A stretch of 64,000 nt of DNA. It comes from a virus. The position numbers and the translations under genes are program-made. This document shows positions 30,918-64,000 of this stretch, piece after piece (position 1 is the stretch's first letter; every line of letters begins with the position of its first letter). The stretch spans positions 72,890 through 136,889 of the IMG/VR virus record IMGVR_UViG_3300032282_005553; one strand, written 5' to 3'. The notes under the pieces are model-generated. The model did no database searches and had not been told where the DNA came from. It saw nothing but the letters and a program-made list of their open reading frames with translations.

Positions 30918-30946
30918 ATTATAACATCCGACCGTCGGAATGTCAA
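30918..30946 (-). promoter_or_regulatory. Perfect sigma70 promoter for ssb with an inverted repeat in the spacer
   Basis: TTGACA-17 nt-TATAAT; spacer contains TCCGAC-G-GTCGGA. Confidence 0.85.
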
Positions 30947-32574: not shown

Positions 32575-33269
32575 TATTTATTCAGTACAAAAGAGTCCTT
32601 AAATTTGATTTTTTGGGATAAATTTCTGTGCAATTTTAAAAATCTAATAAGAATTTCTGCACAATCTTTTACATCTTTTAGGGCGTCGTGTGCTCCTTCT
32701 TTATTTATTCCAAAATAGTCTCGTAATGTATCCAAAGTATAATTTTTAAGATCATTATTGTGTTCGAACCATAAGAAAACCAAGTTCATTATATCAACAA
32801 CATCTCTTGGGAAAAATACATCCGTAGTTCCCTCTTTATTTGTATTACCGTATTTTTTGCTTAATCTATCTATTATCTTTAGATCAAACCTATGTATATT
32901 ATACCCAGCAGCAATCGGAGCACTAAATTGACTTTTTTTAGATGATCTAGCGTGATACATTTCAAGATAGTTTATGAATAACTTCCAAGATTGTTCTTGC
33001 TGAGGATATTCTTTCCATTGATTTAATATATCATCCTTGGAGGAGCCTCTGACTTTGGCATGAAAGTCCAAAATATCTGTAGTATATGTATAGTTAATGT
33101 TTTTTTCTAAAGTTTCTGGCTTAAAAAAGATATTAAATTCCGACTTTGGTACAACTTCCAATTTAATGGGATCAATAATCACTGCCGCAATTTGAACAGG
33201 ACTACATTCTACTGGGTTTGATCCGTCTGTTTCAAAATCGAATACGCAAATCTTGTTATAGTTAATCAT
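32574..33269 (-). CDS. dnaQ: DEDDh 3'-5' exonuclease (Pol III epsilon-like)
   Basis: ExoI 'VFDFETDG', ExoII 'AGYNIHRFDL', ExoIII 'AHDALKD'. Confidence 0.88.
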   Translation of the reverse strand: MINYNKICVFDFETDGSNPVECSPVQIAAVIIDPIKLEVVPKSEFNIFFKPETLEKNINYTYTTDILDFHAKVRGSSKDDILNQWKEYPQQEQSWKLFINYLEMYHARSSKKSQFSAPIAAGYNIHRFDLKIIDRLSKKYGNTNKEGTTDVFFPRDVVDIMNLVFLWFEHNNDLKNYTLDTLRDYFGINKEGAHDALKDVKDCAEILIRFLKLHRNLSQKIKFKDSFVLNK

Positions 33270-33444
33270 TAACTTCTACTTCCGTAATTGGTGTGATCTG
33301 TATTTTTGTGCTAGGGTCTGTTACTTGCTTTGCATTATTTACTCTACAGCAACTAATTCTTTCATCGGGAATTTTTTCATATTCAATTCCGCCAGTAGTA
33401 AATTTATCGCCCACAGCTAAATCCATAAACTTTTTAAGACTCAT
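33262..33444 (-). CDS. Small hypothetical protein (60 aa) between the dnaE halves
   Basis: GGAG SD in the dnaE-N tail; overlaps the exonuclease start. Confidence 0.65.
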   Translation of the reverse strand: MSLKKFMDLAVGDKFTTGGIEYEKIPDERISCCRVNNAKQVTDPSTKIQITPITEVEVND

Positions 33445-33446
33445 AG

Positions 33447-50797: not shown

Positions 50798-53700
50798 TCA
50801 TGGACAACCTAATCCACTACATCTACCAATGACCGTGCCCTCATTATATGACGGAGGAAAGAAATATGCATCACCGTATACTGTTCCTCTGTTTATTGAT
50901 GGTATCAAAGACCCATTTGCTCCATCTGTATTTTTAAAATAGCCATTGCCTTGAATTATACCATCATTGTAAGATCCATAAAATGTTCCACTACTCATTA
51001 ATATTCCTTGGTTAATTGATGAACCAATAAATATGGCATGTCCGGCCACTACTCCTGTCATTGGTTGCTGCTGGTTTCCATATTGATCTATATTGGATTT
51101 TAGTCCATTAATTGATTCTTCTTTGAATTCACAATTATTGGTAACCGATCCGTAATTGGTTGAACTAATAAATAATCCACTACCATCTATTATTCCACTA
51201 TTTATTGATTGATTAATAAATTCAGCATATATATTTATAATCGCAGATTCACCATTAAAAGAAAAATATGACAAAAATGCTCCTTTTGCTAAGGTTCCTT
51301 GGTTTTTTGATTCTGTCATAACAGAATAGCCATCCACGGTTCCATAATTAATGCTTTCAGAAAATAAAATAGAATTAATATCATTTTTTATAGTTCCAAA
51401 ATTTATTCCACCAAAAGTTATAATTCCACCATAATTGCTTGTTGAGCTAGATACTTCTATATTTCCAGAATTGACACCCGTAAAATCAATGTCACTATCA
51501 ATTAAAGAGATAAGACCCATATTTATGTTTGTAAAACTAAAATCAATTCCACTAGATTTTATTACTCCACTATTTACTGAATCTGAGAAATTTATACTTT
51601 CTTTAATATCTTTAATATAACCATGGTTATCAGAGTATGTAAATACAACATTCTCTGTACTATCAATTATTCCTTTATTTGTTGATCGACCAATAGTAGG
51701 ATGAAATTGATTAAAATAATTTTTGACCCCTATAAAAGAACAATTAGATCCACTTAGAAGAATGCCATTATTTACAGTATAATAATTTCTAAAAAATTGC
51801 TCCCCAATAGAGGCTGAGAATAAAGTATTTCCTATTATAAATCCATTATTAATTGCGTTATCAAAAAAATATCCCCCAGATAATGGACTATTGTTTATGC
51901 TTCCTTGCATAAAAGTGAAATTTATTCCAGTATACATAGAATTATTTATACTTGATCCATAAAATCCTGCTCCTCCATCGCATTGACCAATGTTAACGGC
52001 ACTATCAAAAAAAGATCCTGAGCCCAAAACGTGCCCCATATTTTTTGACCAATTAGCAAAGACAGGATTTTCAGTTATAATACCATAATTAATAGAACCT
52101 GATTCAAATAATGCCCCAGTTTGTATGACTCCGAAATTTTTTGCGTCTTCACTGAATGTTGGTATTTTTTTGCAAATTCCACTTAGTGTATTTTGAGAAT
52201 TACATGTAAATAATATTGTATTACAATCTAGCAGTCTTTCATTTTTAGAGTTATCACAAAAAGTTGCAGAATTTATACACTCTCCTCTATTTATGGATCT
52301 ACTATAAAATTCACCATTGCTCACCGTACCAGAAATAGAATTTTCTGATTGATCATAAAATGAAGCATTAGTAATTTTTCCATGATTTTTAGATTCATTG
52401 AATAAAAAACCATAATTTATATCTGTTAATTCAAGAGAATAATTTATTGTAGAATCATATAGTGCTACTATATAAACTTTACCTAGATTAATACTTTTAT
52501 TTTTAAAAATACCATAATTTACAGTACTATTTAATCCACTGCTATTAATGCTATAATTATTGAATACTGCCTTATCAGAAACTATGCCTGAATTAATAGT
52601 TCTATTATTAAAAATAGCATAATTAATTGTGCCTTTATTAACTGACTGATCTTCCAATATTATAAATCCGCTAGAAGTACCTAGACATATTCCATTATTT
52701 ATCGCATTTTTATTAAAAGTTGTTGATCCACTTGTAAACGAAATTGTTCCAACGTTAACTGAATCTAATCCAAATGACGTATTGGATTGTGATATACTTG
52801 CAGAATTATATCCTGTTAAGTTAAAAGTAATGGTAGATAAATTAATATTTCCATAATTTATAGATGTATTGAAGTTATATGTTCCATTACTAAGATTACC
52901 ATAGTTTGTGGATTTATTAAATACTATGCTTCCACTATACATATCTCCATAGTTATTGCTATATTGATTAAATGTTGCAGATCCGTCTAGTCCTCCGTTA
53001 TTGTCGGAATAATTGTCGAATGTCGAGGTTCCTGATAGTGTTCCGACATTAGTTGAATATATAAATTTTGAATTACCAATTACATTACCATTATTTATCC
53101 CACTAGTACACTGTAAACTACCAGAAACATTTCCATCATTAGTGGATTGAGTATATATACTAATATTTCCTACAACATCACTAGAGTTTGTGGAGTTACT
53201 ATGTAGTATTACTGTTCCAAGAATTCTATTATTGTTAGTGCTATTACCACTAAAATAATAAAATGATCCAGAATTTATACCATTGTTAGTACTGTTGTCT
53301 ATGAAATATCCTTCTGAAAAAGTTATACCATTATTGATTGATGAACCACTAAAAATACATCTACCATAAAGTTTGGATTGCTGTGAACTTGTTGATTCAT
53401 TATAGAAAGAACTATTTCCATAGCATTTTCCATTATTTTCACTATTAAAAAACTGACTCTCTGATTGCAATAATCCATTGTTAATTGCAGAATTTTTAAA
53501 TATACATAGACCTTCCATAGTACCATTGTTGGTGCTGTCATCCAATATTGACGATGGTGCTGTTATACTACAATTTTTTGTGATTATACTCTTATTATTA
53601 AAATGCACTCCAAGCGGAACTTTTTTGATAGAGCTTGGATCATCTGTTGCTATATCTTCTATAGCAGAGGACACTTCATCTGCATTTGAGGCACCACCAA

Positions 53701-54139
53701 CAGTTATAGTAGTAGTTATTTGACTAATATTATATGGTAGTATATTGCTATATAATATAGATGCGTTCGAAATAAATCTTTTTGATGTATTTATTTGAAT
53801 AAATGGTGAGGTTTTTTGGCTTTGGGAATATAAATCAACCTTATACAAATAAATATTTTTTGCTATAATTTCACCAAAATTCATAAGCTTACGAGGCTCA
53901 TTGTCATTATTTGCCCCTATCAGAAATAAAGTATTTTTTACATTCAAAGATTTTATCCCATCCAAAGATTTATCTCTTGTTGGCAATAAACATGCGTTGA
54001 TTTGGCCATATCCTGCAGGATCAAGGGATACAGTGGGCGGCTTGACTACTATTATATCTGTTTCGTGTGTTGGCAATGAGTCTGATTGATCAGATAAGTT
54101 AGAATTAGTAAACCATTTTGATAGATCGCAATACGACAT
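50798..54139 (-). CDS. Large beta-solenoid repeat protein
   Basis: Dozens of imperfect 'F-x3-S-x-N-x-G' repeats with a period of about 15-17 aa. Confidence 0.7.
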   Translation of the reverse strand: MSYCDLSKWFTNSNLSDQSDSLPTHETDIIVVKPPTVSLDPAGYGQINACLLPTRDKSLDGIKSLNVKNTLFLIGANNDNEPRKLMNFGEIIAKNIYLYKVDLYSQSQKTSPFIQINTSKRFISNASILYSNILPYNISQITTTITVGGASNADEVSSAIEDIATDDPSSIKKVPLGVHFNNKSIITKNCSITAPSSILDDSTNNGTMEGLCIFKNSAINNGLLQSESQFFNSENNGKCYGNSSFYNESTSSQQSKLYGRCIFSGSSINNGITFSEGYFIDNSTNNGINSGSFYYFSGNSTNNNRILGTVILHSNSTNSSDVVGNISIYTQSTNDGNVSGSLQCTSGINNGNVIGNSKFIYSTNVGTLSGTSTFDNYSDNNGGLDGSATFNQYSNNYGDMYSGSIVFNKSTNYGNLSNGTYNFNTSINYGNINLSTITFNLTGYNSASISQSNTSFGLDSVNVGTISFTSGSTTFNKNAINNGICLGTSSGFIILEDQSVNKGTINYAIFNNRTINSGIVSDKAVFNNYSINSSGLNSTVNYGIFKNKSINLGKVYIVALYDSTINYSLELTDINYGFLFNESKNHGKITNASFYDQSENSISGTVSNGEFYSRSINRGECINSATFCDNSKNERLLDCNTILFTCNSQNTLSGICKKIPTFSEDAKNFGVIQTGALFESGSINYGIITENPVFANWSKNMGHVLGSGSFFDSAVNIGQCDGGAGFYGSSINNSMYTGINFTFMQGSINNSPLSGGYFFDNAINNGFIIGNTLFSASIGEQFFRNYYTVNNGILLSGSNCSFIGVKNYFNQFHPTIGRSTNKGIIDSTENVVFTYSDNHGYIKDIKESINFSDSVNSGVIKSSGIDFSFTNINMGLISLIDSDIDFTGVNSGNIEVSSSTSNYGGIITFGGINFGTIKNDINSILFSESINYGTVDGYSVMTESKNQGTLAKGAFLSYFSFNGESAIINIYAEFINQSINSGIIDGSGLFISSTNYGSVTNNCEFKEESINGLKSNIDQYGNQQQPMTGVVAGHAIFIGSSINQGILMSSGTFYGSYNDGIIQGNGYFKNTDGANGSLIPSINRGTVYGDAYFFPPSYNEGTVIGRCSGLGCP

Positions 54140-54152
54140 AAATCACCCTGTA

Positions 54153-55817
54153 TTAGTCTGCTGCTTGGGTGCCATCAAGATACAAGACCAATTCTTCTTC
54201 ATACGAGTTTTCTCTGACTTTATAGAATTGAGTATAATTCAATTCATTTTTTGGAAATCCGTCATACAAAGATAGGGCAAAAACCATTCCTAGTGCTTTT
54301 TGTTTTGTGTCGCAAGACCACGGAGAACATAATGTGTCTCCTATATCTGAATTAACGCATCCTTTAACCTCCGGTTCAGCAGGATCAGCAGGCTTATATC
54401 CTTTGCATGATTTTTGATCAGTCCTCAACAATTTTAGCATACATTTCAAATGAGATTCTGTAACTAAAAAACTGCCATCTGGAATCGGTCCCCACGTAGG
54501 ATGTCCGCCATCGTTCCATTTTCCCCAGCTATTGGCTAATAAAAATACGCATTCATTATAGTCTACTTTTCGATCATCATATCCTATTATTGCATATGAA
54601 TGATACCATATTCTATCGGGATATGACAGACCAGAAGAATCTCTAACATTAGAAAAACCAACATTGGTCATTATAACAACACCGTAACCATTATAACACA
54701 AATCTTTAATAGATTGCATCATATCTTCGGACGATCTGGAATGTAAAAGAGATATTGTTTTTACTCTCTGTATTCCAGGAATATTATTATTTTTACAATT
54801 TTTTAAGGGAGAACTACTGTATTCTATATTTGTGTGCGTTATATAATTGTATCCATTAATTTTTTGGAAATATTTCAGTAGTAAATCACCTGGACAACTA
54901 TAGAAATTTGGTCCACTATTATTTAATAAATTTACATATCCTCCATATGATTTACGTTTTAATATTCCAATATGTATTAATGGATATTCTTCTACTGGTA
55001 AATTAATCTCATCTTGTGTGATGTCGTAATATCTTCTTGAGCCAAGACCCACCCTAAACTGACCATCTCTTTCTCCGGTAACATCATCACAGCAGAGATT
55101 CATTTGTTGGACACAGCTCAATCCTCCGGTACAGCATGGATCCTTGCTATTATCTTCTTTGCATTCTTTGCAGGGGCTACAAATAGCTGGCTTGGTTCCA
55201 TCTCCATCAGTTTTGCACTTAAATTTCGGAGACCCTAATGCGGAGCCTTGATTGCTACCTGTAGATTGATTTCTCCATGAGGGGAGACAGTCCATATCTC
55301 CGCAACCCGTTGCTCTATCATATAATGCCTTTGCTGTGTCAACTAAATTTGGTCCTAGAGTCATTAAACAGTCAGTAATAAAATTATCGCCAAAATGTTG
55401 TATATATTCTGTGGCGCCTCTGTGTTCCCAACTTGTATAATTTTTACTCTTTTCTAAATCACAAGCTCTCATAATGTCACAAGCATTTCTTATTGCGTGT
55501 GATGTTCCACTGCGAATATCTGGTTGAACTTCTGTAAATGCTTCTACGTCGAGCCTTTGTAGAAACCTAAAAGCTAAGCACAATTTGTCGGATCCAGTAT
55601 TCAATATGCCGGATGGATTTTGTTGAGGAGTTTGTTTTCCAAATGGCGTCTTATCAAAGCAAGGATACTTAAGCTGTTTCAGAAAATTAGATAATCTTTG
55701 AAGATCATACGGGGTTCCTGCTCCTATATCTCCTTGTTGTTGACCCAAAAAATCAGAATACCCAGGCTCACACGGCTCTGCTGTATACTGATAATACAAT
55801 TCCTTTGGACTTAACAT
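54153..55817 (-). CDS. Papain-like (C1) peptidase paralog lacking the catalytic Cys, with Cys-rich insertions
   Basis: 'QPDIRSGTSH', 'WYHSYAIIGY', 'ANSWGKWNDGGHP'; clear paralog of 60721-61647. Confidence 0.8.
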   Translation of the reverse strand: MLSPKELYYQYTAEPCEPGYSDFLGQQQGDIGAGTPYDLQRLSNFLKQLKYPCFDKTPFGKQTPQQNPSGILNTGSDKLCLAFRFLQRLDVEAFTEVQPDIRSGTSHAIRNACDIMRACDLEKSKNYTSWEHRGATEYIQHFGDNFITDCLMTLGPNLVDTAKALYDRATGCGDMDCLPSWRNQSTGSNQGSALGSPKFKCKTDGDGTKPAICSPCKECKEDNSKDPCCTGGLSCVQQMNLCCDDVTGERDGQFRVGLGSRRYYDITQDEINLPVEEYPLIHIGILKRKSYGGYVNLLNNSGPNFYSCPGDLLLKYFQKINGYNYITHTNIEYSSSPLKNCKNNNIPGIQRVKTISLLHSRSSEDMMQSIKDLCYNGYGVVIMTNVGFSNVRDSSGLSYPDRIWYHSYAIIGYDDRKVDYNECVFLLANSWGKWNDGGHPTWGPIPDGSFLVTESHLKCMLKLLRTDQKSCKGYKPADPAEPEVKGCVNSDIGDTLCSPWSCDTKQKALGMVFALSLYDGFPKNELNYTQFYKVRENSYEEELVLYLDGTQAAD

Positions 55818-55826
55818 TATATGATA

Positions 55827-56075
55827 TCATTTTTGGTTAAGTTTGTTATAAAGTACAAGAGCTAAAACAGAACCAGCAACACCCATAACTAATCCAGCTG
55901 GTGAAACAGTTTGATACTGACCCAGAAGATAAAGAATGGCGCCTCCCAAATATGAGCCAGCAACACCAAGAGCAACAGTTTTTACAAAACCGAAATTTTC
56001 TTCTCCGGGTACTATGCTTTTAGCAATAGCTCCGACAAAAATACCATATACACACCATATTAATATACTAAACAT
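55827..56075 (-). CDS. GlsB/YeaQ/YmgE (transglycosylase-associated) membrane protein
   Basis: 'GIFVGAIAKSIVPG...TVALGVAGSYLGG...GVAGSVLAL'. Confidence 0.85.
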   Translation of the reverse strand: MFSILIWCVYGIFVGAIAKSIVPGEENFGFVKTVALGVAGSYLGGAILYLLGQYQTVSPAGLVMGVAGSVLALVLYNKLNQK

Positions 56076-56454
56076 TTGCAGCCTCCACTAATGAATAAAC
56101 TTCATCATCCTTGAGATTTTCGCCAACATCCATTAAACTTTCTGTTAGTTTGATACTATATTTTTTATATTGTTCTGAATTAAGATGATTTTTAATAATA
56201 CGTTTTATGCGTAGTCTGGTAAACCATCCTCTTTTTTTGCTGAATGTTCTTATAGACTCGCCGTAAATTGGTGTTTTGTCTTGGGCTATCATATTTTCAG
56301 TTTTATTTTTATTACATTCTTGTAATACTCTTATTAAAGTTAAAATAATGCTAATTACCATTAGTATGGCTATAACACTACCAAATTCTTCTTCCTCTGG
56401 TATGCCAGCTTTGTTCATTACATTTTTAGCGATGCCTTTAACTTCACTATTCAT
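56068..56454 (-). CDS. Membrane protein, one TM
   Basis: 'VIAILMVISIILTLIRVLQEC' followed by a basic helical domain. Confidence 0.65.
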   Translation of the reverse strand: MNSEVKGIAKNVMNKAGIPEEEEFGSVIAILMVISIILTLIRVLQECNKNKTENMIAQDKTPIYGESIRTFSKKRGWFTRLRIKRIIKNHLNSEQYKKYSIKLTESLMDVGENLKDDEVYSLVEAANV

Positions 56455-56459
56455 GATAT

Positions 56460-56816
56460 TTACCTTTGTAAATTAGTGCATGATCCATCATTGCATCTGG
56501 GTTTAGAGTTTAGTATGATTGGTGGATGTACAATAACTTTTGGTTTACTGTATGCTGGAGCAGTCGGCTCAGGTTGTTTGGTGTCTGGTATACAGTAACC
56601 ACACGGTACTCTGGTTATTTTATCTCCACTGACATAGTAACCTTTACCTAAGCATATTGAACAATCTTTTCTTTTATATTTTTTTACATTATCGACGTGT
56701 TGTGCTTTTACTATACCGCCAGCAACGACAACAGATGCTGTTGTTGATCTATCATAGCTGTAATCTCCAGCAGCAAAAATAGAAGATATTAATAATAAAC
56801 AAAATAATTTATTCAT
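56460..56816 (-). CDS. Secreted small Cys protein with a DnaJ-like Zn-finger motif
   Basis: Signal peptide; 'CSICLGKG...CGYC'; C-terminal 'CNDGSC'. Confidence 0.65.
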   Translation of the reverse strand: MNKLFCLLLISSIFAAGDYSYDRSTTASVVVAGGIVKAQHVDNVKKYKRKDCSICLGKGYYVSGDKITRVPCGYCIPDTKQPEPTAPAYSKPKVIVHPPIILNSKPRCNDGSCTNLQR

Positions 56817-56988
56817 TTTTAGGTGCCTTTGGTCTAGGTAATATTTTTTTACGTCTATTTGGCTTAGCAGGAATAATTGGAGTATCTTCTTCTTTGATTT
56901 TTGGAGCTATTAGTTTTAATACACCTAATATGAACCCCGATATCATACTAATTAGCCTATTTAATAATATTCTGTCTAATAATCTCAT
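56809..56988 (-). CDS. Small membrane-associated protein (59 aa, below the ORF-track cutoff)
   Basis: GAGGTG SD; MRLLDRILLNRLISMISGFILGVLKLIAPK... with a Pro/Lys-rich tail; overlaps the next start. Confidence 0.65.
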   Translation of the reverse strand: MRLLDRILLNRLISMISGFILGVLKLIAPKIKEEDTPIIPAKPNRRKKILPRPKAPKNE

Positions 56989-57070
56989 AATTCACCTCAT
57001 TAAAAAAATAGATACTAAGTTATACTCCGTTCGATCATTAATCCTAAAATAACTTAAGAAATATTGTTTA

Positions 57071-60000
57071 TTAACAAGGTACTAGATTAATTGGAATTTC
57101 GCCAACAGGAGTGGTACTGCATCTACTATTCCAATATAAATCATTATATGGCCAATTATAAACTAAGCCAGTAACTTTGATTTCAGGAGTGGCTCCGTTG
57201 ATTACTGTATCTAAATTTTTAACTGTAGCATACTTAAGATACTTACATGCCCATTCCCTAGTTGCATCAACACCTGTACCAGCATAAAGCCTAACAATAT
57301 CTGTAGATGCATTAAGAGTTGTTGTATCATAAATCACATCATTTATTACAGGAACTGCCCCCAAGTTTTTTGGTTGAAAATATAGTACATATCCAGTAGG
57401 ATTAAATGCTGCAAAAGCTGACGAGTCTGGACGTATTGAGTATGAAGGACATACTGATACATCTATATCAATTGGTCTGCCACTATCTCTTGGTAATTGA
57501 TAACTATTTAATGTTGATACATCAATTATATTACGACAAGGATTAGTGTATTCTGTACAATTACTTAGCGATGGTGTTACTACTCTGCATGTGTCTAGAA
57601 ATTTTATAGCTAAAGAATATAGGTCGCTGCCGCTATCACAACTTGGTGGAAATGCAGATGAATTAGGCTGATTTTCACAAGTTCCGTTTTCGGTTTCTGT
57701 ATCTCCAGCACACATAATAACAGTATATGAGTCTGCTATTGTATAGTCATTATATGCTCTTCGATATCTAGTTTTTATAGGAATATTAATTGATGTCAAC
57801 TCTGCAGGAAGAGGACCAACACGGCCATCTTGAACAGTGTCACTTAGTGATAAATACATAACAGAAGATGAAGCATTAGAAGTAGAAGAAACCCCAAAAG
57901 TTAAGCCCCATGGAGAATCATCTATTGGAGTATAAAACAATGAAACGCCATCTACTGGTGGATCAATACGAGTTCCACTAAATGAGTAGGATCTATTTAA
58001 TTCAGGATAATATGGATGATTAGATATTGTAATATTTATAAATTTACTTATATATAGAGATAAATTATCTCCTGCTGAAGGAGGAGAGGATGGCATATCA
58101 GATAGATTAATTAAGCATCCTGTTAGTGCTGCGCTTGGTATGTCGAGACCAGTTAAAGGTATACAATTTAGTGATGGATTCCATCCAGTAGAACAGTCGA
58201 TATCTATTGGGGGGATAGATCCTTTAGAATAAATACCAGGAGAACCGGTTGCATAAGCAATAGGACTTCCCCCTGATCCTACATATGCACCCTTATAATT
58301 TGGCGTACTATAGCCAGTATTTACAATATTATTGTTATTATATTCCCAATAGAATGAACGATTGGTTATAGCTTGACCAAAAGATACTCCAGTGAAATAG
58401 ATCCAAGAATTTTGGGAAGAACCAGAAGGAACAAATAAGTGAGTACCATCTCCGTTAGAACTAAACGAAACGGCAGATCCTGAATAATATCCTATCTTAG
58501 TAGTAGATGGTAAACTCCAAAACTGTCTAAATGCTGGAATAGCCACAGCTGGATTATTTGTTTCGATAAATACCGCCGACTCACCAGAACCTAGAGATGT
58601 CCAACCGGATGGAATAATAGATACTGCATAATTTATGCTCTTACTATCGTCGTCCATTTTCCAGCCAGAAATGTTAATTCCAGAAGTATCAAAATTTGTA
58701 ATTTCAAACCAGTCCGGGGCCGAAGATAATCCATATTTTGCGGTAGAGTTGCTCATAACTTCTGTTATTCCAATTTTCATAGTAGGAACATATGGAGTAT
58801 CAACAGGTGGCGTTACGGCACTAGATCTAGCTAATATTGGTTGTGCGGCAAATCCCCAGAGGTCGTTAACTCCTTTAGGAACAACACTAAAATATAATCC
58901 TCCAAATAAGTTTGGAATATCGCTCATTTCGCTTTGTAATATAGTGTACAAAGAGTCCATGTTTCCAGAAGATACTGTATAAGTAGTATTATTAGTACTC
59001 ATTCCATGACTAGTGTTTGAGGAAGAATATCCTCCATAGCGATACTTATGATCTATAGAAGCTAAAAATATAATTTCATAAGTAATATTAGCAATAGATT
59101 GACCAGAGACATTTGTCGTAACAGGATCCCAATTCATTACAAAATTACCATTAACTAGTTGACCAGTAAGGTTGGTAACTGGCCTTGGTCTACTTAGAAA
59201 GTAATCGACTCTATCATCGCTATCTTGTATGAAATTTATTAAATTATTTTTTCCAGTTGTGATGGTTGAAGATGTTGTGGAACTTGGTTGTTTCATATCA
59301 CTATTAAAGGTATCTATTTTTTGATCAAAGATAGTATTAATATAGTTTATTATATTAGAATCATTTTTCAACCAATTATTGAATGCTACTAGTTCTGTAG
59401 CAAACTGGGTGAGTGTTGTATTATTTGCCCAGCATTGTTGTAAAAATCTACCATAGGCAAACCATGCTAATGCATTAAGAGCATCCTCGCTACAATAGCT
59501 GTCTGCGCCCCATGGTATAACATGAAATTTATTGTTGTTATCAGCAGCTAGATAACTATTATTTAAAAAAGTATTGTATCCGTCCATCTGCCCCAATAAA
59601 AGTTCAATGACAGCAAATTTAATGAACTGATTAATGTTAGCATAATTAGAAAAATTAGTATACCAATTAGAGGTAGAAGCTAACGCTGTTAAAAAATTGT
59701 TAATATTAGAACGACTCGATCCATATTCTCTACTATAGTATAAATCACTAGACGGAACATTTAGTTCTTGATTAGTTGTTGTTACTCCTAATTCATATAA
59801 TCCAGTAGTATTATTTGTGCCAAAAAATTCATTAATTTTGTAAAGATTTTTTAAATTTTCTACATTGATATATTCGCCATAGTCAGTATAAAATTCTATA
59901 TTTACACTAGATAGATCCGATAAAGTATATTCTGTCCCATTTAATGTTTCAGAAATTTTGAAAGATGTATCTGTTCTGTCCGAAGATATCACATAAAAAA

Positions 60001-60724
60001 TGCTATCATTTGATATATTTCCCAAACCCACAAATTTTACTCTCATTCCAGGAAATAAATAATGATTATTATTAGTAGTTATAGTATTATTTGTTACGCT
60101 GATAATTTTGGTGGTACTATCATTTATAAAAACTCTAATAAAATTAGTTCTAGGTGCTAACATTCCATAATCTCTATAGATTTTATATATGATATGTTCT
60201 GTTATTTTTGCCCCACTTTGTATCATATTATTGATAGTAAGATCAGTAGCAGTACCTAAGCCACCTATAGATGATGTTGATTTAACTCTTAGTGGCATTT
60301 TTCTATTATATGGTAAAAAACTGCCGTATCCTTTGACTCTTGCTTCTACGTTATGAGGACCATATTTTTGAACTTTATTATTTATCTTATATGAAATAGT
60401 AAGTTCAACAAAAGAATAGGTTTGTTTCCATCCCAGTGGATTTTGGCCACGAGCTATAATTTGAGCATCAGTTAGAATCGTAGGGGCTAAAAATTTTTCT
60501 GTATCATACAACATTCTTGATGGACTATACCTATCAGGAACCTCCATCAAATTTGCTTTAGCTGTGCTGTCTATCCTAAAATCAAAACTAATATCAGAGT
60601 TAATAGAATAAAATTCTTCTGGAAAATTAAAAATGATTCCATCATTATTGTAAACGTATATCTGATTGTTTCTAAAACTAACATAAAATTTATTATCTAG
60701 TTTTCTAACGCAAAAATTTGTCAT
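57071..60724 (-). CDS. CotH-kinase-like protein with FN3-like and lamin-tail domains
   Basis: 'RVKGYGS', 'LTINNMIQ', 'APRTNFIRVFIN', 'YINVE', 'GQMDGY..NNSYL', 'IPWGAD'; FN3-like 'PVTNLTG...MNWDPV'; LTD 'ITEVMSN...DWFEITN...ISGWKMDD'. Confidence 0.75.
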   Translation of the reverse strand: MTNFCVRKLDNKFYVSFRNNQIYVYNNDGIIFNFPEEFYSINSDISFDFRIDSTAKANLMEVPDRYSPSRMLYDTEKFLAPTILTDAQIIARGQNPLGWKQTYSFVELTISYKINNKVQKYGPHNVEARVKGYGSFLPYNRKMPLRVKSTSSIGGLGTATDLTINNMIQSGAKITEHIIYKIYRDYGMLAPRTNFIRVFINDSTTKIISVTNNTITTNNNHYLFPGMRVKFVGLGNISNDSIFYVISSDRTDTSFKISETLNGTEYTLSDLSSVNIEFYTDYGEYINVENLKNLYKINEFFGTNNTTGLYELGVTTTNQELNVPSSDLYYSREYGSSRSNINNFLTALASTSNWYTNFSNYANINQFIKFAVIELLLGQMDGYNTFLNNSYLAADNNNKFHVIPWGADSYCSEDALNALAWFAYGRFLQQCWANNTTLTQFATELVAFNNWLKNDSNIINYINTIFDQKIDTFNSDMKQPSSTTSSTITTGKNNLINFIQDSDDRVDYFLSRPRPVTNLTGQLVNGNFVMNWDPVTTNVSGQSIANITYEIIFLASIDHKYRYGGYSSSNTSHGMSTNNTTYTVSSGNMDSLYTILQSEMSDIPNLFGGLYFSVVPKGVNDLWGFAAQPILARSSAVTPPVDTPYVPTMKIGITEVMSNSTAKYGLSSAPDWFEITNFDTSGINISGWKMDDDSKSINYAVSIIPSGWTSLGSGESAVFIETNNPAVAIPAFRQFWSLPSTTKIGYYSGSAVSFSSNGDGTHLFVPSGSSQNSWIYFTGVSFGQAITNRSFYWEYNNNNIVNTGYSTPNYKGAYVGSGGSPIAYATGSPGIYSKGSIPPIDIDCSTGWNPSLNCIPLTGLDIPSAALTGCLINLSDMPSSPPSAGDNLSLYISKFINITISNHPYYPELNRSYSFSGTRIDPPVDGVSLFYTPIDDSPWGLTFGVSSTSNASSSVMYLSLSDTVQDGRVGPLPAELTSINIPIKTRYRRAYNDYTIADSYTVIMCAGDTETENGTCENQPNSSAFPPSCDSGSDLYSLAIKFLDTCRVVTPSLSNCTEYTNPCRNIIDVSTLNSYQLPRDSGRPIDIDVSVCPSYSIRPDSSAFAAFNPTGYVLYFQPKNLGAVPVINDVIYDTTTLNASTDIVRLYAGTGVDATREWACKYLKYATVKNLDTVINGATPEIKVTGLVYNWPYNDLYWNSRCSTTPVGEIPINLVPC

Positions 60725-61647
60725 AGATAATCAAAGCCATAATCCGGTAATTTCTGAAGTGGGAATCCATCAAAATTACTAAATGCATAACTACCATTAG
60801 CGGCTAGCATTCCAGCTGCAACTTCAGCTCTGATTAGAAAACTTCCATCTGGAATAGGACCCCAATCTGGATGTCCACCATCATTCCACTTACCCCAACT
60901 ATTTTGAACTAGAAATAGTGGTTCACTACCAGTATCATCACAGGCTATCCAAGCCATACAATGAGCCCAGTTACCACTAGTATTAGCAATACCTTTTTTA
61001 TCTCGCTTATTGCTAAATCCATAGTTAGAACACACAGCTAATCCATAACCATTAGCTAATGCATCTCTTGCTTCTTCAATAGTTTTTATAAGACTTGCTG
61101 TTTTAATTTGATGATCGTTAGCAAGATCAATCACTGGATCTGGCAATCCTCTACCTCCCCAGCCTGCCCCTAGATTACCATTGTATTTACTAAAATCAGC
61201 AATACCTTTATAGTTTTGACGTAGTACTATTCCGCCATTCTCACTAACAAACGTGGCTGCTCTTGCGCAACTCATTCCTTCTCCACCATGGCCTCTAGCT
61301 CCATAAATTGCCTCAGTTGCACCTCTAGCAATCCATGCTTCACGTTCACCATTAACATCAATTTCTACGGCTCTACTAACATCACATGCGTTTCTTGTTC
61401 CATGACTTACACAATCACCAGTAGTTTGTCTTTCTTCATATGCTTTTTTGTCAAATTTTAAAACACTTTTATAAGGAGTAGACAGTTTGCCTTTACCACT
61501 ACTTTTAAATTTCTTTCCAATAGCATCTCCAAACAATGGATATTTACTATTTTCCATTAATTGATCAAATACATGCTGTTCCCATAAACAGCCACTAAAA
61601 CCTTTTCTATAATTATTATAGAGTTCGTCTGGAGTATACCTTGGCAT
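60721..61647 (-). CDS. Papain-like (C1) cysteine peptidase
   Basis: 'QTTGDCVSH', 'WAHCM', 'QNSWG': complete Q/C/H/N catalytic set. Confidence 0.85.
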   Translation of the reverse strand: MPRYTPDELYNNYRKGFSGCLWEQHVFDQLMENSKYPLFGDAIGKKFKSSGKGKLSTPYKSVLKFDKKAYEERQTTGDCVSHGTRNACDVSRAVEIDVNGEREAWIARGATEAIYGARGHGGEGMSCARAATFVSENGGIVLRQNYKGIADFSKYNGNLGAGWGGRGLPDPVIDLANDHQIKTASLIKTIEEARDALANGYGLAVCSNYGFSNKRDKKGIANTSGNWAHCMAWIACDDTGSEPLFLVQNSWGKWNDGGHPDWGPIPDGSFLIRAEVAAGMLAANGSYAFSNFDGFPLQKLPDYGFDYL

Positions 61648-62141
61648 TATTTGCTTCCTTCATTACAGGCCCATGCTAGTACTTTAAATCCTTCTACAGC
61701 TTTAGCTCTGAGATCATTACTCAATAAAACTTGATCATCACCTATTGCTTGTATAACCAATGCTTGTGCTGCTGCTGATAGTTCCGGATATTTTCCTTTA
61801 ATATTCAGCTTAAGCATTGCACCAGCTAGTCTATTAGCTTGTCTAATTTCTTCTGTATTAGTAATTACCTGATCTTTTTCGTCTAATGATACTAAAGTAG
61901 CTATATCATTATATAGTTTAGCTAATTTTTTACCATCTATAGATCTATCATTATTAACAGACAATGCCTTTATAACATCATCACATTTTGCTTTTAACTC
62001 ATCTGATGTGGGGGCAACGAATTCTTTTTCATCGACTGATACAACTGATCTATTATTGAAAATATTGTTGATAAATACTGGTTTAAATAAACCGATTGTC
62101 AATAATAGTCCTGCTAAAATTAATAGTTTATTATTTATCAT
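61647..62141 (-). CDS. Exported/membrane-anchored helical protein
   Basis: N-terminal hydrophobic segment; coupled to the peptidase (TAATG). Confidence 0.6.
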   Translation of the reverse strand: MINNKLLILAGLLLTIGLFKPVFINNIFNNRSVVSVDEKEFVAPTSDELKAKCDDVIKALSVNNDRSIDGKKLAKLYNDIATLVSLDEKDQVITNTEEIRQANRLAGAMLKLNIKGKYPELSAAAQALVIQAIGDDQVLLSNDLRAKAVEGFKVLAWACNEGSK

Positions 62142-62542
62142 ATAACTTTATCCTTTACGTCTTCTTTTTGACAAGAATTTGGACTTAAAAATGGAAACAT
62201 ATCATCAGCTACTTTTACTGCTTTATCACATCCGCTCTTAACAGCAAGATCTCTTGTTTTTTTCCAAGATGATACTAGATCAAAGAAAGTGCTATCTGTG
62301 CTAACAACATTCTTAGTATCTGTTTTGATTACATTAACTATTGATGATCCTAGGGTTTGTGGAGCAGATCTATTTACGATTAATTTTTCATAGGCATTTT
62401 TAATAAATAATGCTACTGGACTTAATTTATCCTTAAATAAAATCCATAATATTAATCCTATTCCAGCATATAACGCCAAATCCGTTGGTGTTGTTTTTGT
62501 TGCGAACTGATCAAAACTCTGAGTCAAAATTTCAGTATTCAT
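62138..62542 (-). CDS. Membrane protein, one TM
   Basis: Likely start MNTEIL with a GAGG SD; 'LALYAGIGLILWILF'. Confidence 0.6.
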   Translation of the reverse strand: MNTEILTQSFDQFATKTTPTDLALYAGIGLILWILFKDKLSPVALFIKNAYEKLIVNRSAPQTLGSSIVNVIKTDTKNVVSTDSTFFDLVSSWKKTRDLAVKSGCDKAVKVADDMFPFLSPNSCQKEDVKDKVI

Positions 62543-62558
62543 ACTATTCCTCTGATTA

Positions 62559-62942
62559 TTAATTTTTAGAAAAAACACCGACCTGTTTGAATGTTGTAAC
62601 CATCGCATCTATTGATGATCCAACGAGAATCATCAAAAATGTTTTGACGTACTTATGTATTATAGGCTCAATAAATGGTGGAACAAAGGGAATATCTATA
62701 ACAACAAAAACGCTATTGTAGAATTTATCTAATAAATTCATTGCTATAATTTTTTTATCTGGCCCTGAGATATCTTTAGCATTAGCTTGTATGGTTTGAA
62801 TCACACTAGCAATAGTTAGTTGTAAAATTTTCCAAACTTGAGATATGGCAACTTTTTTAATCTCACCTAAAGCTTCTTTAGTTTTATTTATTAGATTTTC
62901 TAGTTCTGGTTTTAGAAGTTGTTCTAGTTCTTGGATTGTCAT
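62559..62942 (-). CDS. Hypothetical amphipathic helical protein
   Basis: Likely start MTIQE with a GAGG SD; 'GPDKK..A...DIPFVPPFIE...IDAMV'. Confidence 0.6.
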   Translation of the reverse strand: MTIQELEQLLKPELENLINKTKEALGEIKKVAISQVWKILQLTIASVIQTIQANAKDISGPDKKIIAMNLLDKFYNSVFVVIDIPFVPPFIEPIIHKYVKTFLMILVGSSIDAMVTTFKQVGVFSKN

Positions 62943-63231
62943 TTTCTGTGCCTCTTTTACGAACATTTCTTTTATTAGCTTCTTCTCTTTCAATTGGAGA
63001 TGCTGTGTTCCACCAAACTTTCTTTATTTCATTTCTACCTTTAATATATTTGAATAATACAGTTAGTTGTCCAATAATCAATACTACAGCCTCTAATCCT
63101 TTACTTGTTTCATTAATTAAATCTTCTTTTTGACTATTACTATCTAATAATCCAAGCAGATACAGTCCGCTAAAAAGAAAACTTACTAATGTAAACCAAA
63201 ATTCACTAGTTTTATAACCAGGTTTGACCAT
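62884..63231 (-). CDS. Holin-like membrane protein
   Basis: 'KPGYKTSEFW', two hydrophobic segments and a strongly basic C-tail; GGAG SD before MVKPG. Confidence 0.55.
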   Translation of the reverse strand: MVKPGYKTSEFWFTLVSFLFSGLYLLGLLDSNSQKEDLINETSKGLEAVVLIIGQLTVLFKYIKGRNEIKKVWWNTASPIEREEANKRNVRKRGTENDNPRTRTTSKTRTRKSNK

Positions 63232-63262
63232 TTTAAACTCCAATAAATGTAATAATAGTAAC

Positions 63263-63278
63263 TATTATTAGATACACC
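63263..63278 (-). promoter_or_regulatory. Candidate late promoter motif GGTGTATCTAATAATA
   Basis: Intergenic, 31 nt upstream of the holin-like ATG; identical to 855-870. Confidence 0.55.
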
Positions 63279-63287
63279 TAATCTAAA

Positions 63288-63929
63288 TTAAGTATTTTGA
63301 TCCACAAATCCAAAACAAACTGTGCAGTAATACTCTGGAACAGTATAGTTAAACGTTACACTACTCATTGTCCCGTCGATGCGAATGATGTTGAAACCTT
63401 CTGCGCCGGTAAATTGTGTGTACTGCGTGGGACTTACTTGATTTAGATACGTTGTTTGCGACCACGACTCACTGGTTAACGCCCAAATAGGAGTAAACGG
63501 TTTTGGAGCGCCGTTTTCATCAAACACAAGCACCGGCACAGTGGTACTGGGATTACCTACACTGGCAAACGCAACCAAGGCGTCTGTTATTGGAGAGCTA
63601 AACGTCGCAGTAAATACGCCAGCGTGAGTGTTGGCAATCTGCACTCCGTCAATTGGTACGCCGTATTCCATCGGAAAAGTTTGAGCTGCATACATACCAT
63701 TATGTTGAAACATACCTCCGCCATTTTGAGTAATCTCGACTGTGATATTATTTTGACCTATTCCAGATGCTGCGGATTCTGTGATAGAAGTCATTGTCAT
63801 CCATTGAAATCCTGAACTACCAAAAGATGAGGCTGGAAAAACTAAATTATTTCCTAAAAATATTTTAGAAACATCACTATTTCCTAATTTAATAGAAGAT
63901 ATATTAGAACTATTTAAAAATATAGACAT
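63288..63929 (-). CDS. Virion accessory-type protein with a variable C-terminal beta domain
   Basis: N-terminal 'ISSIKLGNSDVSKIFLGNNLVF' motif common in phage tail/decoration proteins. Confidence 0.55.
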   Translation of the reverse strand: MSIFLNSSNISSIKLGNSDVSKIFLGNNLVFPASSFGSSGFQWMTMTSITESAASGIGQNNITVEITQNGGGMFQHNGMYAAQTFPMEYGVPIDGVQIANTHAGVFTATFSSPITDALVAFASVGNPSTTVPVLVFDENGAPKPFTPIWALTSESWSQTTYLNQVSPTQYTQFTGAEGFNIIRIDGTMSSVTFNYTVPEYYCTVCFGFVDQNT

Positions 63930-64000
63930 TATGAGATAACATATAGGGTGCTAGAATTTTTAGTAACAAGAGCATCATAATTTGCTTGAGATATACTAAC
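63929..64000 (-). CDS. C-terminal end of a phage tail-type protein (partial)
   Basis: 'VSISQANYDALVTKNSSTLYVIS*' matches the common phage 'YDALxxKxxxTLYxI' motif; TAATG overlap. Confidence 0.6.
   Translation of the reverse strand, partial: VSISQANYDALVTKNSSTLYVIS

What the first reader, a model, noticed from the sequence alone, without database searches (positions are those of the whole stretch)
55827..63231. Lysis-like cassette with a papain-type protease where an endolysin is expected
Seen: late motif, then holin-like gene, amphipathic protein, two membrane/exported proteins, an active C1 peptidase (TAATG-coupled), CotH-like protein, small membrane proteins, a secreted Cys protein, GlsB/YeaQ and the pseudo-papain. 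No amidase, lysozyme, M15/M23 or CHAP gene is recognisable in the window. Inference: an undescribed exit or envelope-remodelling system for a host with a protein-rich or atypical envelope (PVC superphylum suspected), with the membrane proteins as spanin or holin equivalents.
Basis: inference. Interest (0 to 1): 0.7.

Follow-up and report, generated by a model that had tools for sequence, protein, structure and literature searches.

The report
Phage exit module built on papain-type protease
An uncultured freshwater phage and its many relatives carry no recognisable cell-wall-digesting enzyme, but keep a conserved cluster of membrane proteins around an active papain-type protease that probably acts in the host envelope, most likely to break the cell open.

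Summary
On the minus strand a promoter-like GGTGTAT motif precedes a 2-TM holin-like gene. Then come three membrane proteins, a 308-aa peptidase TAATG-coupled to the gene before it, CotH-LTD, small membrane or exported proteins, GlsB and a Cys-less paralog.

The peptidase is a true but divergent C1 enzyme:
- AF2 pLDDT 95; xylellain Z 21.3.
- C79 and H229 are invariant; Q74 and N249 are at least 90% conserved.

The core order holin-g144-g156-g164-peptidase-(g59)-Cys-rich-g128-GlsB recurs in about 70 of 80 related viral loci. CotH (1 of 80) and the pseudo-papain (12 of 80) are accessory insertions.

New evidence:
- g164 sits directly upstream of the peptidase even at 35-42% identity, and in other phages it is fused to it behind an N-terminal membrane anchor.
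- A whole subclade carries twin-arginine export signals, so the enzyme works in the periplasm or envelope.
- One distant locus places it beside a u-spanin-like gene and the terminase.
- Fourteen peptidoglycan-hydrolase families give no over-threshold match in this contig, three complete relatives or a distant 96%-complete carrier.

Best reading (about 0.5): a proteolytic lysis module. Substrate and host are unknown, and the PVC idea is untested. The contig is truncated (92% complete).

The parts
63272..63278 (-). Promoter-like motif GGTGTAT, 46 nt upstream of the first gene of the module
   Evidence: Sequence read. The same hexamer lies 34-55 nt upstream of 5 structural genes (6 observed against 0.49 expected). 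Exact GTGTAT occurs upstream of the homologous gene in 38 of 73 relatives.
62884..63231 (-). Holin-like protein (115 aa from ATG; MVKPGYKTSEFW...): 2 TM segments, basic C-terminal tail
   Evidence: Homolog found in 75 of 80 loci. No holin family match.
62559..62993 (-). g144: amphipathic N-terminal half and hydrophobic C-terminal half. The true start is probably the ATG at 62942.
   Evidence: Found in 77 of 80 loci.
62138..62608 (-). g156: N-terminal TM anchor and a conserved C-terminal domain with 2 conserved Cys. The true start is probably 62542.
   Evidence: Found in 79 of 80 loci.
61647..62141 (-). g164: N-terminal TM anchor plus a helical-bundle domain. It is the obligate partner of the peptidase.
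   Evidence: Found in 79 of 80 loci. Directly upstream of the peptidase in distant loci (HMM E from 2.6e-6 to 5e-14). Fused N-terminal to the peptidase in 8 of 150 family representatives. AF2 pLDDT 85, no PDB fold match at E<=0.001.
60721..61647 (-). pep308: active C1 (papain-family) cysteine peptidase with no signal peptide. Start overlaps the g164 stop (TAATG).
   Evidence: Found in 80 of 80 loci by construction of the search.
57071..60724 (-). CotH + lamin-tail-domain protein (1217 aa); accessory insertion
   Evidence: Pfam hits. Found in 1 of 80 related loci.
56809..56988 (-). g59: one TM segment and a basic Pro-rich tail
   Evidence: Found in 46 of 80 loci.
56460..56816 (-). cys118: N-terminal signal-like segment, conserved CxxCxGxG...CxxC, C-terminal C..G.C
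   Evidence: Found in 74 of 80 loci. A similar Cys pattern sits directly after the peptidase in L089.
56068..56454 (-). g128: single-TM protein with a conserved C-terminal domain
   Evidence: Found in 73 of 80 loci.
55827..56075 (-). GlsB/YeaQ/YmgE ('transglycosylase-associated') 3-TM protein
   Evidence: PF04226, 31.8 bits, over cut-off. PRK10457 E = 1.4e-11. Found in 73 of 80 loci.
54153..55817 (-). Pseudo-papain paralog (554 aa, 26 Cys). Catalytic Cys absent; His and NSWG kept. Accessory.
   Evidence: BLASTP against pep308, E = 1e-27 and 2e-10. More than 50% coverage in 12 of 80 loci.
50798..54139 (-). 1113-aa repeat protein that travels with the pseudo-papain; accessory and variable
   Evidence: Similar to a variable bactofilin-like fibre family found upstream in relatives.

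Best explanation
This is the phage's lysis (exit) module. A divergent papain-family (C1) cysteine peptidase does the envelope-degrading job that a muralytic endolysin normally does.

Proposed sequence of events:
1. A phage-specific promoter, of the type that also fronts the structural genes, switches the operon on late. This step is inferred.
2. The 2-TM protein with the basic tail, possibly with the GlsB-type 3-TM protein, accumulates in the inner membrane and opens it. This rests on topology only.
3. The folded, signal-less peptidase reaches the periplasm. Its first ~50 residues lie where the end of a C1 propeptide lies, so it may be latent until then. This step is inferred.
4. There it works together with g164, a membrane-anchored helical-bundle protein. 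The association is shown by conserved adjacency and by natural fusions. Physical binding is not shown.
5. It cleaves a peptide substrate of the envelope. That substrate is either the peptide part of peptidoglycan or structural envelope proteins, and it is unknown.
6. The exported CxxCxGxG protein may supply redox chemistry, and the other small membrane proteins may be regulators or outer-membrane disruptors. This step is speculative.

CotH-LTD, the pseudo-papain and the repeat protein are lineage-specific insertions, not parts of the machine.
For: The enzyme is real and active-looking:
- AF2 model has pLDDT 95.2.
- The Foldseek PDB rows shown are all C1 enzymes (xylellain 7e-9).
- VIA-align gives xylellain Z 21.3 (rmsd 2.9, 233 aligned) and the papain family Z 17-19.
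- A family profile hits caricain at 1.1e-5.
- C79, H229 and W251 are invariant, and Q74, N249 and S250 are at least 90% conserved, in 55 sequences.

It is a module:
- The order holin-g144-g156-g164-pep-(g59)-cys118-g128-glsB is the commonest pattern.
- Each core gene is found in 73-80 of 80 loci, and g59 in 46.

It has a late-type promoter motif.

Its site of action is the envelope:
- 17 of 150 family representatives start with a TM segment or signal.
- In 11 of the 15 TM-anchored ones, the charges fit an N-in/C-out topology.
- 8 of them carry a g164-homologous domain before the peptidase (E from 5e-9 to 1.5e-3).
- The L093 peptidase, and at least 48 of its 82 full-length relatives, have twin-arginine signals.

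Lysis-cassette context in a distant phage, L093/L094:
- The gene order is Sec-signal partner, Tat-peptidase, WCxxC thioredoxin-like protein, a 127-aa protein with an IMAC lipobox-like N-terminus and a C-terminal TM (u-spanin architecture), then the large terminase.

No alternative lysin was found:
- 14 Pfam peptidoglycan-hydrolase families were searched six-frame. None gave an over-cut-off match in G000 or in three 100%-complete relatives; the five families were also negative in G005 (96% complete).
- Controls rang for 12 of the 14 families.
- Pfam scans of the ORFs called in G005 and in G004 (62% complete) show no lysin (with the module-region ORFs; ORFs of 70 aa or more, a few short ones not scanned).
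- Pfam and PHROG scans of this contig show none.

The family occurs in ordinary 56-60 kb phages without giant proteins. This, together with the export signals, argues against a virion-processing role.
Against: - No C1-family enzyme is known to me to cut peptidoglycan, and no cell-wall-binding domain is fused to any family member scanned (30 long members).
- No holin or spanin family matched. No lipoprotein ORF exists in 54000-64000, so two of the three canonical lysis functions are unassigned in this phage.
- Eight membrane or exported proteins is more than a lysis cassette usually needs.
- The peptidase is unusually conserved for a lysin: median 83% identity, against 88% for RNR and 73% for PhoH. 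This comparison is biased, because the 80 loci were chosen by peptidase similarity.
- The gene hosts inteins at its two catalytic residues. That is a habit of core replication-type genes.
- The module sits at the head of the strand that carries the nucleotide-metabolism and replication genes, and GTGTAT also occurs upstream of RNR. 'Late' timing is therefore not proven.
- A divergent, unrecognised muralytic enzyme among the many unannotated ORFs cannot be excluded.
- The window's contig is truncated just upstream of the module.
- In L089/G005 the neighbours are nucleases, a methylase and a resolvase, not late genes.
Confidence: 0.5

Rival explanations
1. It is a periplasmic protease module with a role other than lysis. 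Candidates are cleaving or masking the phage's own receptor, superinfection exclusion, or remodelling the envelope during infection. Lysis would then be done by unrecognised genes.
For: - The envelope location is supported, but it says nothing about timing or outcome.
- There are many small membrane proteins with no holin or spanin family match.
- The module lies next to variable fibre-like genes in relatives.
- Tat export before lysis would expose the cell to the enzyme throughout expression.
- The high conservation and the inteins are atypical for lysins.
Against: - No other lysin candidate appears in three complete relatives or in a distant 96%-complete carrier.
- In L093 the context is u-spanin-like gene then terminase.
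- The first gene has holin-like topology, and the promoter motif is shared with structural genes.
Confidence: 0.2
2. It is a true lysis cassette, but the peptidase is an auxiliary enzyme. It would cut outer-membrane-to-wall tethers, an S-layer or a capsule protein, doing a spanin-like or LysB-like last step. An undetected, divergent muralytic enzyme would degrade the peptidoglycan.
For: - C1 enzymes and the S8 subtilase found in the same module in L089/L091 (8.5e-53) are protein-cutting enzymes.
- No spanin was identified in the window, so the outer-layer step needs an agent.
- Many ORFs have no annotation.
Against: - 14 muralytic families are negative in the relatives and carriers listed under the main explanation.
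- The only sub-threshold hits are a false one in DnaE and a 15-bit NlpC/P60 hit in a fibre-like ORF of one relative.
Confidence: 0.17
3. It is a cytoplasmic protease. It would either mature virion proteins, such as the 6532-, 3440- and 2710-aa giants of this phage, or cleave host proteins during takeover. The neighbouring membrane genes would be unrelated.
For: - pep308 itself has no signal peptide.
- This phage has giant ORFs, including a 6532-aa ORF with a tape-measure domain.
- The gene shows core-gene-like conservation and carries inteins.
Against: - Homologs are Tat-exported or anchored N-in/C-out.
- The partner g164 is membrane-anchored and naturally fused to the peptidase.
- The family occurs in 56-60 kb phages whose largest ORFs are about 1270 aa.
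- The gene lies far from the head genes. A separate 499-aa ORF sits between the portal and capsid-region genes, and relatives have a ClpP-like gene.
Confidence: 0.06

Closest known systems
Holin-endolysin-spanin lysis cassettes of tailed phages (lambda S/R/Rz/Rz1 type; from my own knowledge)
   Same: - A small 2-TM protein with a charged C-terminus heads an operon that holds a signal-less hydrolase and several membrane or periplasmic proteins.
- In a distant carrier the block sits just before the terminase, with a u-spanin-like gene.
   Different: - The enzyme is a C1 peptidase, not a glycosidase, amidase or known peptidoglycan peptidase.
- No component matches a holin or spanin family.
- An obligate membrane-anchored partner (g164) has no counterpart in those cassettes.
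Clan CA cysteine-peptidase lysins: CHAP and NlpC/P60 endolysins, and the pseudomurein endoisopeptidases PeiW/PeiP of methanogen viruses (passages of PMC10318531 read)
   Same: They use papain-like Cys-His catalysis to cut wall peptides for virus release. PeiW/PeiP show that atypical walls are met with atypical cysteine peptidases.
   Different: - Different families: PF05257 and PF00877 are negative here.
- This enzyme has the full two-lobed C1 fold with Gln/Cys/His/Asn and the NSWG motif.
- No wall-binding domain is present.
Xylellain and the papain/cathepsin family (MEROPS C1A)
   Same: - Best structural match: Z 21.3 to xylellain and Z 17-19 to papain, cathepsins, actinidin and ficin.
- Zymogen structures align from model residue 5, and mature enzymes from about residue 50.
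   Different: - Only 11-17% identity.
- Pfam PF00112 reaches only 13.7 bits against a cut-off of 20.7.
- No long ERFNIN-type prodomain.
- Phage-encoded and paired with a membrane anchor.
SAR endolysins and secreted endolysins (from my own knowledge)
   Same: The family shows the same three delivery styles seen in endolysins: signal-less, N-terminal membrane anchor, and cleavable export signal.
   Different: - Export here is by twin-arginine signals or by a stable-looking anchor followed by a 150-aa helical domain.
- Release from the membrane has not been examined.
Cwp84 of Clostridioides difficile, a C1A protease that processes the S-layer precursor (function from my own knowledge)
   Same: It is a bacterial-world C1 enzyme acting on envelope protein. 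It appears among the profile hits (4d59 and 4ci7, E = 0.028-0.037).
   Different: - The match is weak.
- Cwp84 is a cellular maturation enzyme, not a phage exit enzyme.

Membership tests
Peptidase family C1 (papain) | Two-lobed papain fold | tested here: met
   AF2 model pLDDT 95.2. VIA-align Z 21.3 to xylellain (rmsd 2.9, 233 aligned) and Z 17-19 to about 50 C1 entries. All Foldseek rows shown are C1 enzymes.
Peptidase family C1 (papain) | Catalytic Cys and His, with Asn and the oxyanion-hole Gln, in the C1 order and motifs (QxxxxC ... H ... NSWG) | tested here: met
   C79, H229 and W251 invariant; Q74, N249 and S250 at least 90% conserved, in 55 sequences. The His/NSWG block aligns to caricain H159/N175-S-W.
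Peptidase family C1 (papain) | Sequence match to Pfam PF00112 over its gathering score | tested here: not met
   E = 0.068, 13.7 bits against a cut-off of 20.7. One relative, P0228, reaches 19.5 bits. A family profile reaches PDB C1 enzymes at 1.1e-5. It is therefore a divergent branch outside the curated model.
Peptidase family C1 (papain) | Inhibitory N-terminal propeptide (zymogen) | tested here: inconclusive
   Zymogens align from model residue 5 and mature enzymes from about residue 50. Whether residues 1-50 block the cleft was not inspected.
Endolysin (phage peptidoglycan hydrolase) | Belongs to a known muralytic family | tested here: not met
   None of 14 Pfam families is found anywhere in the genome. 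pep308 matches only C1.
Endolysin (phage peptidoglycan hydrolase) | Cleaves peptidoglycan and is required for lysis | not testable with these tools
   Needs an enzyme assay on sacculi and phage or host genetics.
Holin | Small protein with one or more TM segments and a charged hydrophilic C-terminus, encoded next to the lytic enzyme | tested here: met
   115 aa; hydrophobic segments 15-35 and 49-67; 23 K+R, concentrated in the C-terminal tail. It is the first gene of the operon.
Holin | Match to a described holin family | tested here: not met
   No hit in Pfam at E<=10, PHROGs at 1e-3 or NCBIfam at 0.05.
Spanin (i/o pair or u-spanin) | Outer-membrane lipoprotein signal (lipobox Cys), with a type II partner or a C-terminal TM | tested here: not met
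   No lipobox-bearing ORF of 30 aa or more on either strand of 54000-64000. A u-spanin-like architecture is seen only in the distant locus L093.
GlsB/YeaQ/YmgE (Pfam Transgly_assoc) | Match over the Pfam gathering score; about 80 aa with 3 TM segments | tested here: met
   PF04226, 31.8 bits against 25.3. 3 hydrophobic segments. PRK10457 E = 1.4e-11, below the equivalog cut-off.
CotH kinase family | Match over the Pfam gathering score | tested here: met
   PF08757, 55.6 bits against 23.8, covering profile positions 78-218 of 322. LTD 34.7 bits against 34.3. Kinase residues were not examined.
SAR (signal-anchor-release) endolysin | N-terminal signal-anchor on the enzyme itself | tested here: not met
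   pep308 has no hydrophobic N-terminus. 15 of 150 representatives do have one, but on a g164-type domain fused upstream.

The most novel reading that the evidence does not exclude
A large, undescribed class of phage lysis enzyme: C1 papain-type 'proteolytic endolysins' with an obligate membrane-anchored partner. The family has about 1,400 clusters at 50% identity, and nearly all that could be placed lie on phage-like contigs. In whole lineages these enzymes would have replaced muralytic enzymes. They are delivered in three ways: holin-dependent, membrane-anchored fusion, or Tat-exported. They would open the cell by cutting envelope peptides or proteins, helped by dedicated thiol-redox proteins.
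Probability: 0.35. Interest if true: 0.85.

Novelty: new variant of a known kind. Interest (0 to 1): 0.72.

Why it matters
Phage lysis is thought to need a peptidoglycan hydrolase. Genomes without one are usually put down to poor annotation.

Here a specific, testable substitute is named: a conserved papain-type enzyme with a fixed partner and clear envelope targeting, found across more than a thousand sequence clusters of uncultured phages. If it lyses cells, three things follow:
- It adds a new enzymatic class to phage lysins.
- It gives a handle on the envelope biology of abundant uncultured freshwater hosts.
- It explains many viral genomes with 'no endolysin found'.

Inteins sitting exactly at the catalytic Cys and His are also unusual outside replication-type genes, as far as I know.

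Tried and rejected
- Close cultured relatives: none. tblastn of the peptidase against 50,697 phage records found no match. TerL reaches only about 25% identity to Bacillus siphophages, and DnaE and RNR hits are all below 60%.
- Prokaryote genomes: a peptidase pattern scan found no relative. The alignment was too variable for a pattern scan.
- Host clue from GDP-mannose dehydratase: 45-53% identity to many phyla, so uninformative. No tRNA genes.
- Two-copy peptidase idea: long homologs with two matched stretches are intein-split genes, not tandem duplications.
- Wall-binding domains fused to long homologs: none in the 30 scanned.
- g164 fold: helical bundle with no PDB match at E<=0.001. A likeness to a C1 propeptide or cystatin is therefore not shown.
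- Sub-threshold lysin hits in G001: the M15_4 hit lies inside DnaE, so it is false. The NlpC/P60 hit (15 bits) lies in a fibre-like ORF that has only fibre-repeat similarity in this genome.
- Sigma-70 promoter scan of 54000-64000: 43 sites against 50.7 expected, so no signal. The exact 8-mer TAGTGTAT is not enriched in the window.
- Complex prediction for peptidase plus g164 was not available.
- Literature: five full-text searches returned no paper describing a C1-family phage lysis enzyme. I saw listings and abstracts only, plus passages of PMC10318531.

Full report
**Setting.** The window is the last 64 kb of a single 136,889-bp virus contig. The contig has no terminal repeat, and CheckV rates it 92% complete.
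- The plus-strand block holds terminase, portal, cement and capsid-region genes, many Mtd_N/BppL-type fibres and giant ORFs. These include a 6532-aa ORF with a tape-measure domain and a 3440-aa ORF.
- The minus-strand block holds split DnaE, DnaB, primase, RecA, PhoH, class II RNR, dCMP deaminase and glycosyltransferases.
- The finding sits at the head of the minus-strand block.
- A gene is cut by the contig end just upstream. Relatives carry further genes there (IMPDH/GMP-reductase, ferritin, sigma r4, ClpP-like, fibre-like) that this contig lacks.

**Observation.** All listed genes exist at the stated places.
- The first gene, read from the ATG at 63231, has two hydrophobic segments and a strongly basic tail.
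- g156 and g164 have N-terminal anchors. g59 and g128 have one TM segment each.
- cys118 has a signal-like N-terminus and a conserved CxxCxGxG...CxxC block.
- The last core gene is a GlsB/YeaQ protein, over the Pfam cut-off.
- The g164 stop and the peptidase start overlap as TAATG.
- CotH (55.6 bits) and LTD (34.7 bits) are confirmed.
- The 554-aa paralog aligns to both halves of the peptidase but has no Cys at the catalytic position.
- A GGTGTAT motif lies 46 nt before the first gene. GTGTAT occupies the same 30-60 nt position before five structural genes: 6 of the genome's 42 sites, against 0.49 expected, P = 1.3e-5. It recurs before the homologous gene in 38 of 73 relatives, with near-variants in others.

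**The peptidase.** Pfam sees it only weakly (PF00112 E = 0.068, below cut-off), and phmmer against PDB finds nothing meaningful.
- An exhaustive search found 1421 representatives at E<=0.001.
- In an alignment of 55 single-domain members, C79, H229 and W251 are invariant, and Q74, N249 and S250 are nearly so.
- The profile hits caricain at 1.1e-5, and the hits shown are almost all C1 proteins.
- The AF2 model is confident (pLDDT 95.2).
- Foldseek and VIA-align return C1 enzymes only in the rows shown. Xylellain scores Z 21.3, and papain, cathepsins, actinidin and ficin score Z 17-19.
- Zymogen entries align from residue 5 and mature enzymes from about residue 50. The N-terminal segment therefore lies where the end of a propeptide lies.
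- It is a genuine but divergent C1 enzyme with a complete catalytic set.

**Conservation and what belongs to the module.** 144 IMG/VR stretches encode a relative. The best 80 (77-98% identity, contigs up to 230 kb) were fetched with flanks. Many of these loci are cut by contig ends.

| Gene | Loci with a homolog (of 80) |
|---|---|
| holin-like | 75 |
| g144 | 77 |
| g156 | 79 |
| g164 | 79 |
| g59 | 46 |
| cys118 | 74 |
| g128 | 73 |
| GlsB | 73 |
| CotH | 1 |
| pseudo-papain (>50% coverage) | 12 |
| repeat protein (>50% coverage) | 11 |

(Counts.)

- The commonest order is holin-g144-g156-g164-pep-g59-cys118-g128-glsB-dCMP deaminase-RNR-PhoH.
- The core is therefore eight or nine genes. CotH, the pseudo-papain and the repeat protein are insertions.
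- Median identities are: peptidase 83%, RNR 88%, GlsB 77%, PhoH 73%, and the small membrane proteins 51-66%. The set was selected on the peptidase, which inflates its figure.

**Where the enzyme works.** Three lines of evidence put it in the envelope.
1. *Conserved neighbour.* In distant phages (peptidase 35-42% identical, 56-60 kb contigs, GC 48-51%), a g164 homolog is still the gene directly upstream. The HMM gives E from 2.6e-6 to 5e-14 in four of six loci. The other two loci have a Sec-signal protein in that place.
2. *Natural fusions.* 17 of 150 family representatives begin with a hydrophobic segment.
   - 8 of them have a g164-homologous domain between that anchor and the peptidase.
   - In 11 of the 15 anchored ones, the charges flanking the anchor fit N-in/C-out.
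3. *Export signals.* The L093 peptidase has a twin-arginine signal. So do at least 48 of its 82 full-length relatives, and more are visible by eye.

The family thus has signal-less, anchored and exported members, as endolysins do. This makes a cytoplasmic or virion-maturation role unlikely.

**Context in distant carriers.**
- In L093/L094 the peptidase is followed by an exported WCxxC thioredoxin-like protein.
- Next comes a 127-aa protein with a lipobox-like IMAC and a C-terminal TM (the u-spanin architecture), then a small ORF and the large terminase. This is the classic place for a lysis cassette.
- In L089/L091 the block is TM protein, S8 subtilase (8.5e-53), 79-aa TM protein, g164-like protein, peptidase, then a Cys-rich protein with the same CxxCxGxG pattern.
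- A second protease and recurrent thiol-type proteins point to protein or peptide chemistry in an oxidising compartment.

**Is there another lysin?**
- Pfam and PHROG scans of all ORFs of 50 aa or more in the contig show none. The giant ORFs were scanned in pieces.
- Six-frame searches covered Amidase_2, Phage_lysozyme, SLT, CHAP, M23, M15_4, Amidase_3, GH25, NlpC/P60, GH19, M15_3, GH108, Glucosaminidase and Phage_lysozyme2.
- No over-cut-off match was found in G000 or in three 100%-complete relatives, one of which has terminal repeats. Amidase_2 was searched in the three relatives and in G004-G008 but not six-frame in G000, where the Pfam ORF scans stand in for it. The last four families and Amidase_2 were also negative in G005.
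- Controls were silent for GH19 and GH108 only.
- Two sub-threshold hits in G001 were a false hit in DnaE and a 15-bit hit in a fibre-like ORF.
- Pfam scans of G005 (96% complete) and G004 (62% complete) also show no lysin.
- Absence by profile search is not proof, but it now holds for separate lineages that share the module.

**Weighing.**
- The lysis reading explains the operon structure, the promoter motif, the envelope targeting, the spanin-and-terminase context and the missing lysin.
- It leaves open the substrate, the identity of the holin and spanin functions in this phage, and why the gene is so conserved.
- The intein finding is relevant here. Long homologs carry inteins inserted exactly before C79 and exactly after H229, with Cys as the +1 residue. 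This marks the gene as a stable, strongly conserved core gene of these phages.
- I put the lysis module at about 0.5. A non-lytic envelope protease module gets 0.2, an auxiliary role beside a hidden muralytic enzyme 0.17, and a cytoplasmic or virion role 0.06.

**Host.** Unknown.
- There are no tRNAs and no cultured relatives. The Gmd gene is uninformative.
- One distant carrier has an ECF sigma of Pfam PF07638 and a sulfatase. From memory, these are common in Planctomycetes. That is a lead only, and it does not concern this 33%-GC phage.

**From memory, not from any call:**
- TCDB lists the GlsB/YeaQ family as a putative holin family.
- The xylellain crystal structure has an N-terminal segment over its active site.
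- Cwp84 processes the C. difficile S-layer precursor.

**Literature.** Five searches (listings and abstracts seen) and passages of PMC10318531 show cysteine-peptidase lysins of the CHAP, NlpC/P60 and Pei types only. None is of family C1.

Noticed in passing
Homologs P0121, P0122, P0124, P0130, P0134, P0147 and others, relative to window 60721-61647: Many homologs of the peptidase carry one or two inteins, with LAGLIDADG endonuclease domains. One is inserted exactly before the catalytic Cys79 and one exactly after the catalytic His229, each with Cys as the +1 residue. I know of no other intein host of this kind outside replication-type genes.
   Followed up: partly
Genome 54412-74010 (its end is window 3-1121) and genome 29307-39629: A 6532-aa ORF has a tape-measure (PhageMin_Tail) domain near its N-terminus. 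A 3440-aa ORF has no Pfam match. There are further ORFs of 2710, 1447, 1413 and 1387 aa. If the 6532-aa protein sets tail length, the tail would be extraordinary.
   Followed up: no
window 30943-35321, minus strand: DNA polymerase III alpha is split into two ORFs (PHP+NTPase, and finger+HhH+OB). An RNase_T/DnaQ-like exonuclease gene lies between them.
   Followed up: no
window 63930-64000 / genome end: The contig is truncated here. A gene homologous to an 86-aa 'phage tail tip domain' family is cut by the contig end. Relatives carry about 10 kb of further same-strand genes upstream (IMPDH/GMP reductase, GT, ferritin, sigma r4, ClpP-like).
   Followed up: yes
L089:4487-5365 and L091:4403-5353: A Peptidase_S8 subtilase (E = 8.5e-53) sits two genes upstream of the C1 peptidase, inside the same block of small membrane proteins, in a distant 56-kb phage lineage.
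   Followed up: partly
L093:6793-7601: Directly after a Tat-signal peptidase come an exported thioredoxin-like WCxxC protein and a 127-aa protein with twin-Arg/lipobox-like N-terminus and a C-terminal TM (u-spanin architecture). The large terminase follows.
   Followed up: partly
window 56924 and 47469, minus strand: Two further GGTGTAT sites. One lies inside the g59 coding sequence, 108 nt before cys118. The other lies in the GT-RNR intergenic region, about 170 nt before RNR. The motif may therefore not be restricted to late genes.
   Followed up: no
window 63288-63929 and 50798-54139; genome 13930-48709: There are many fibre-like genes (Mtd_N, BppL_N, Laminin_G_3, bactofilin-like repeats) on both strands. 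Those flanking the module differ between relatives, which suggests a host-range cassette next to it.
   Followed up: no
G004 (L098-L101): A distant carrier of the module encodes an ECF sigma (PF07638), a sulfatase, a sulfotransferase and two ParB-like proteins. This is a possible hint of a PVC-type host and of a temperate or plasmid-like lifestyle.
   Followed up: no
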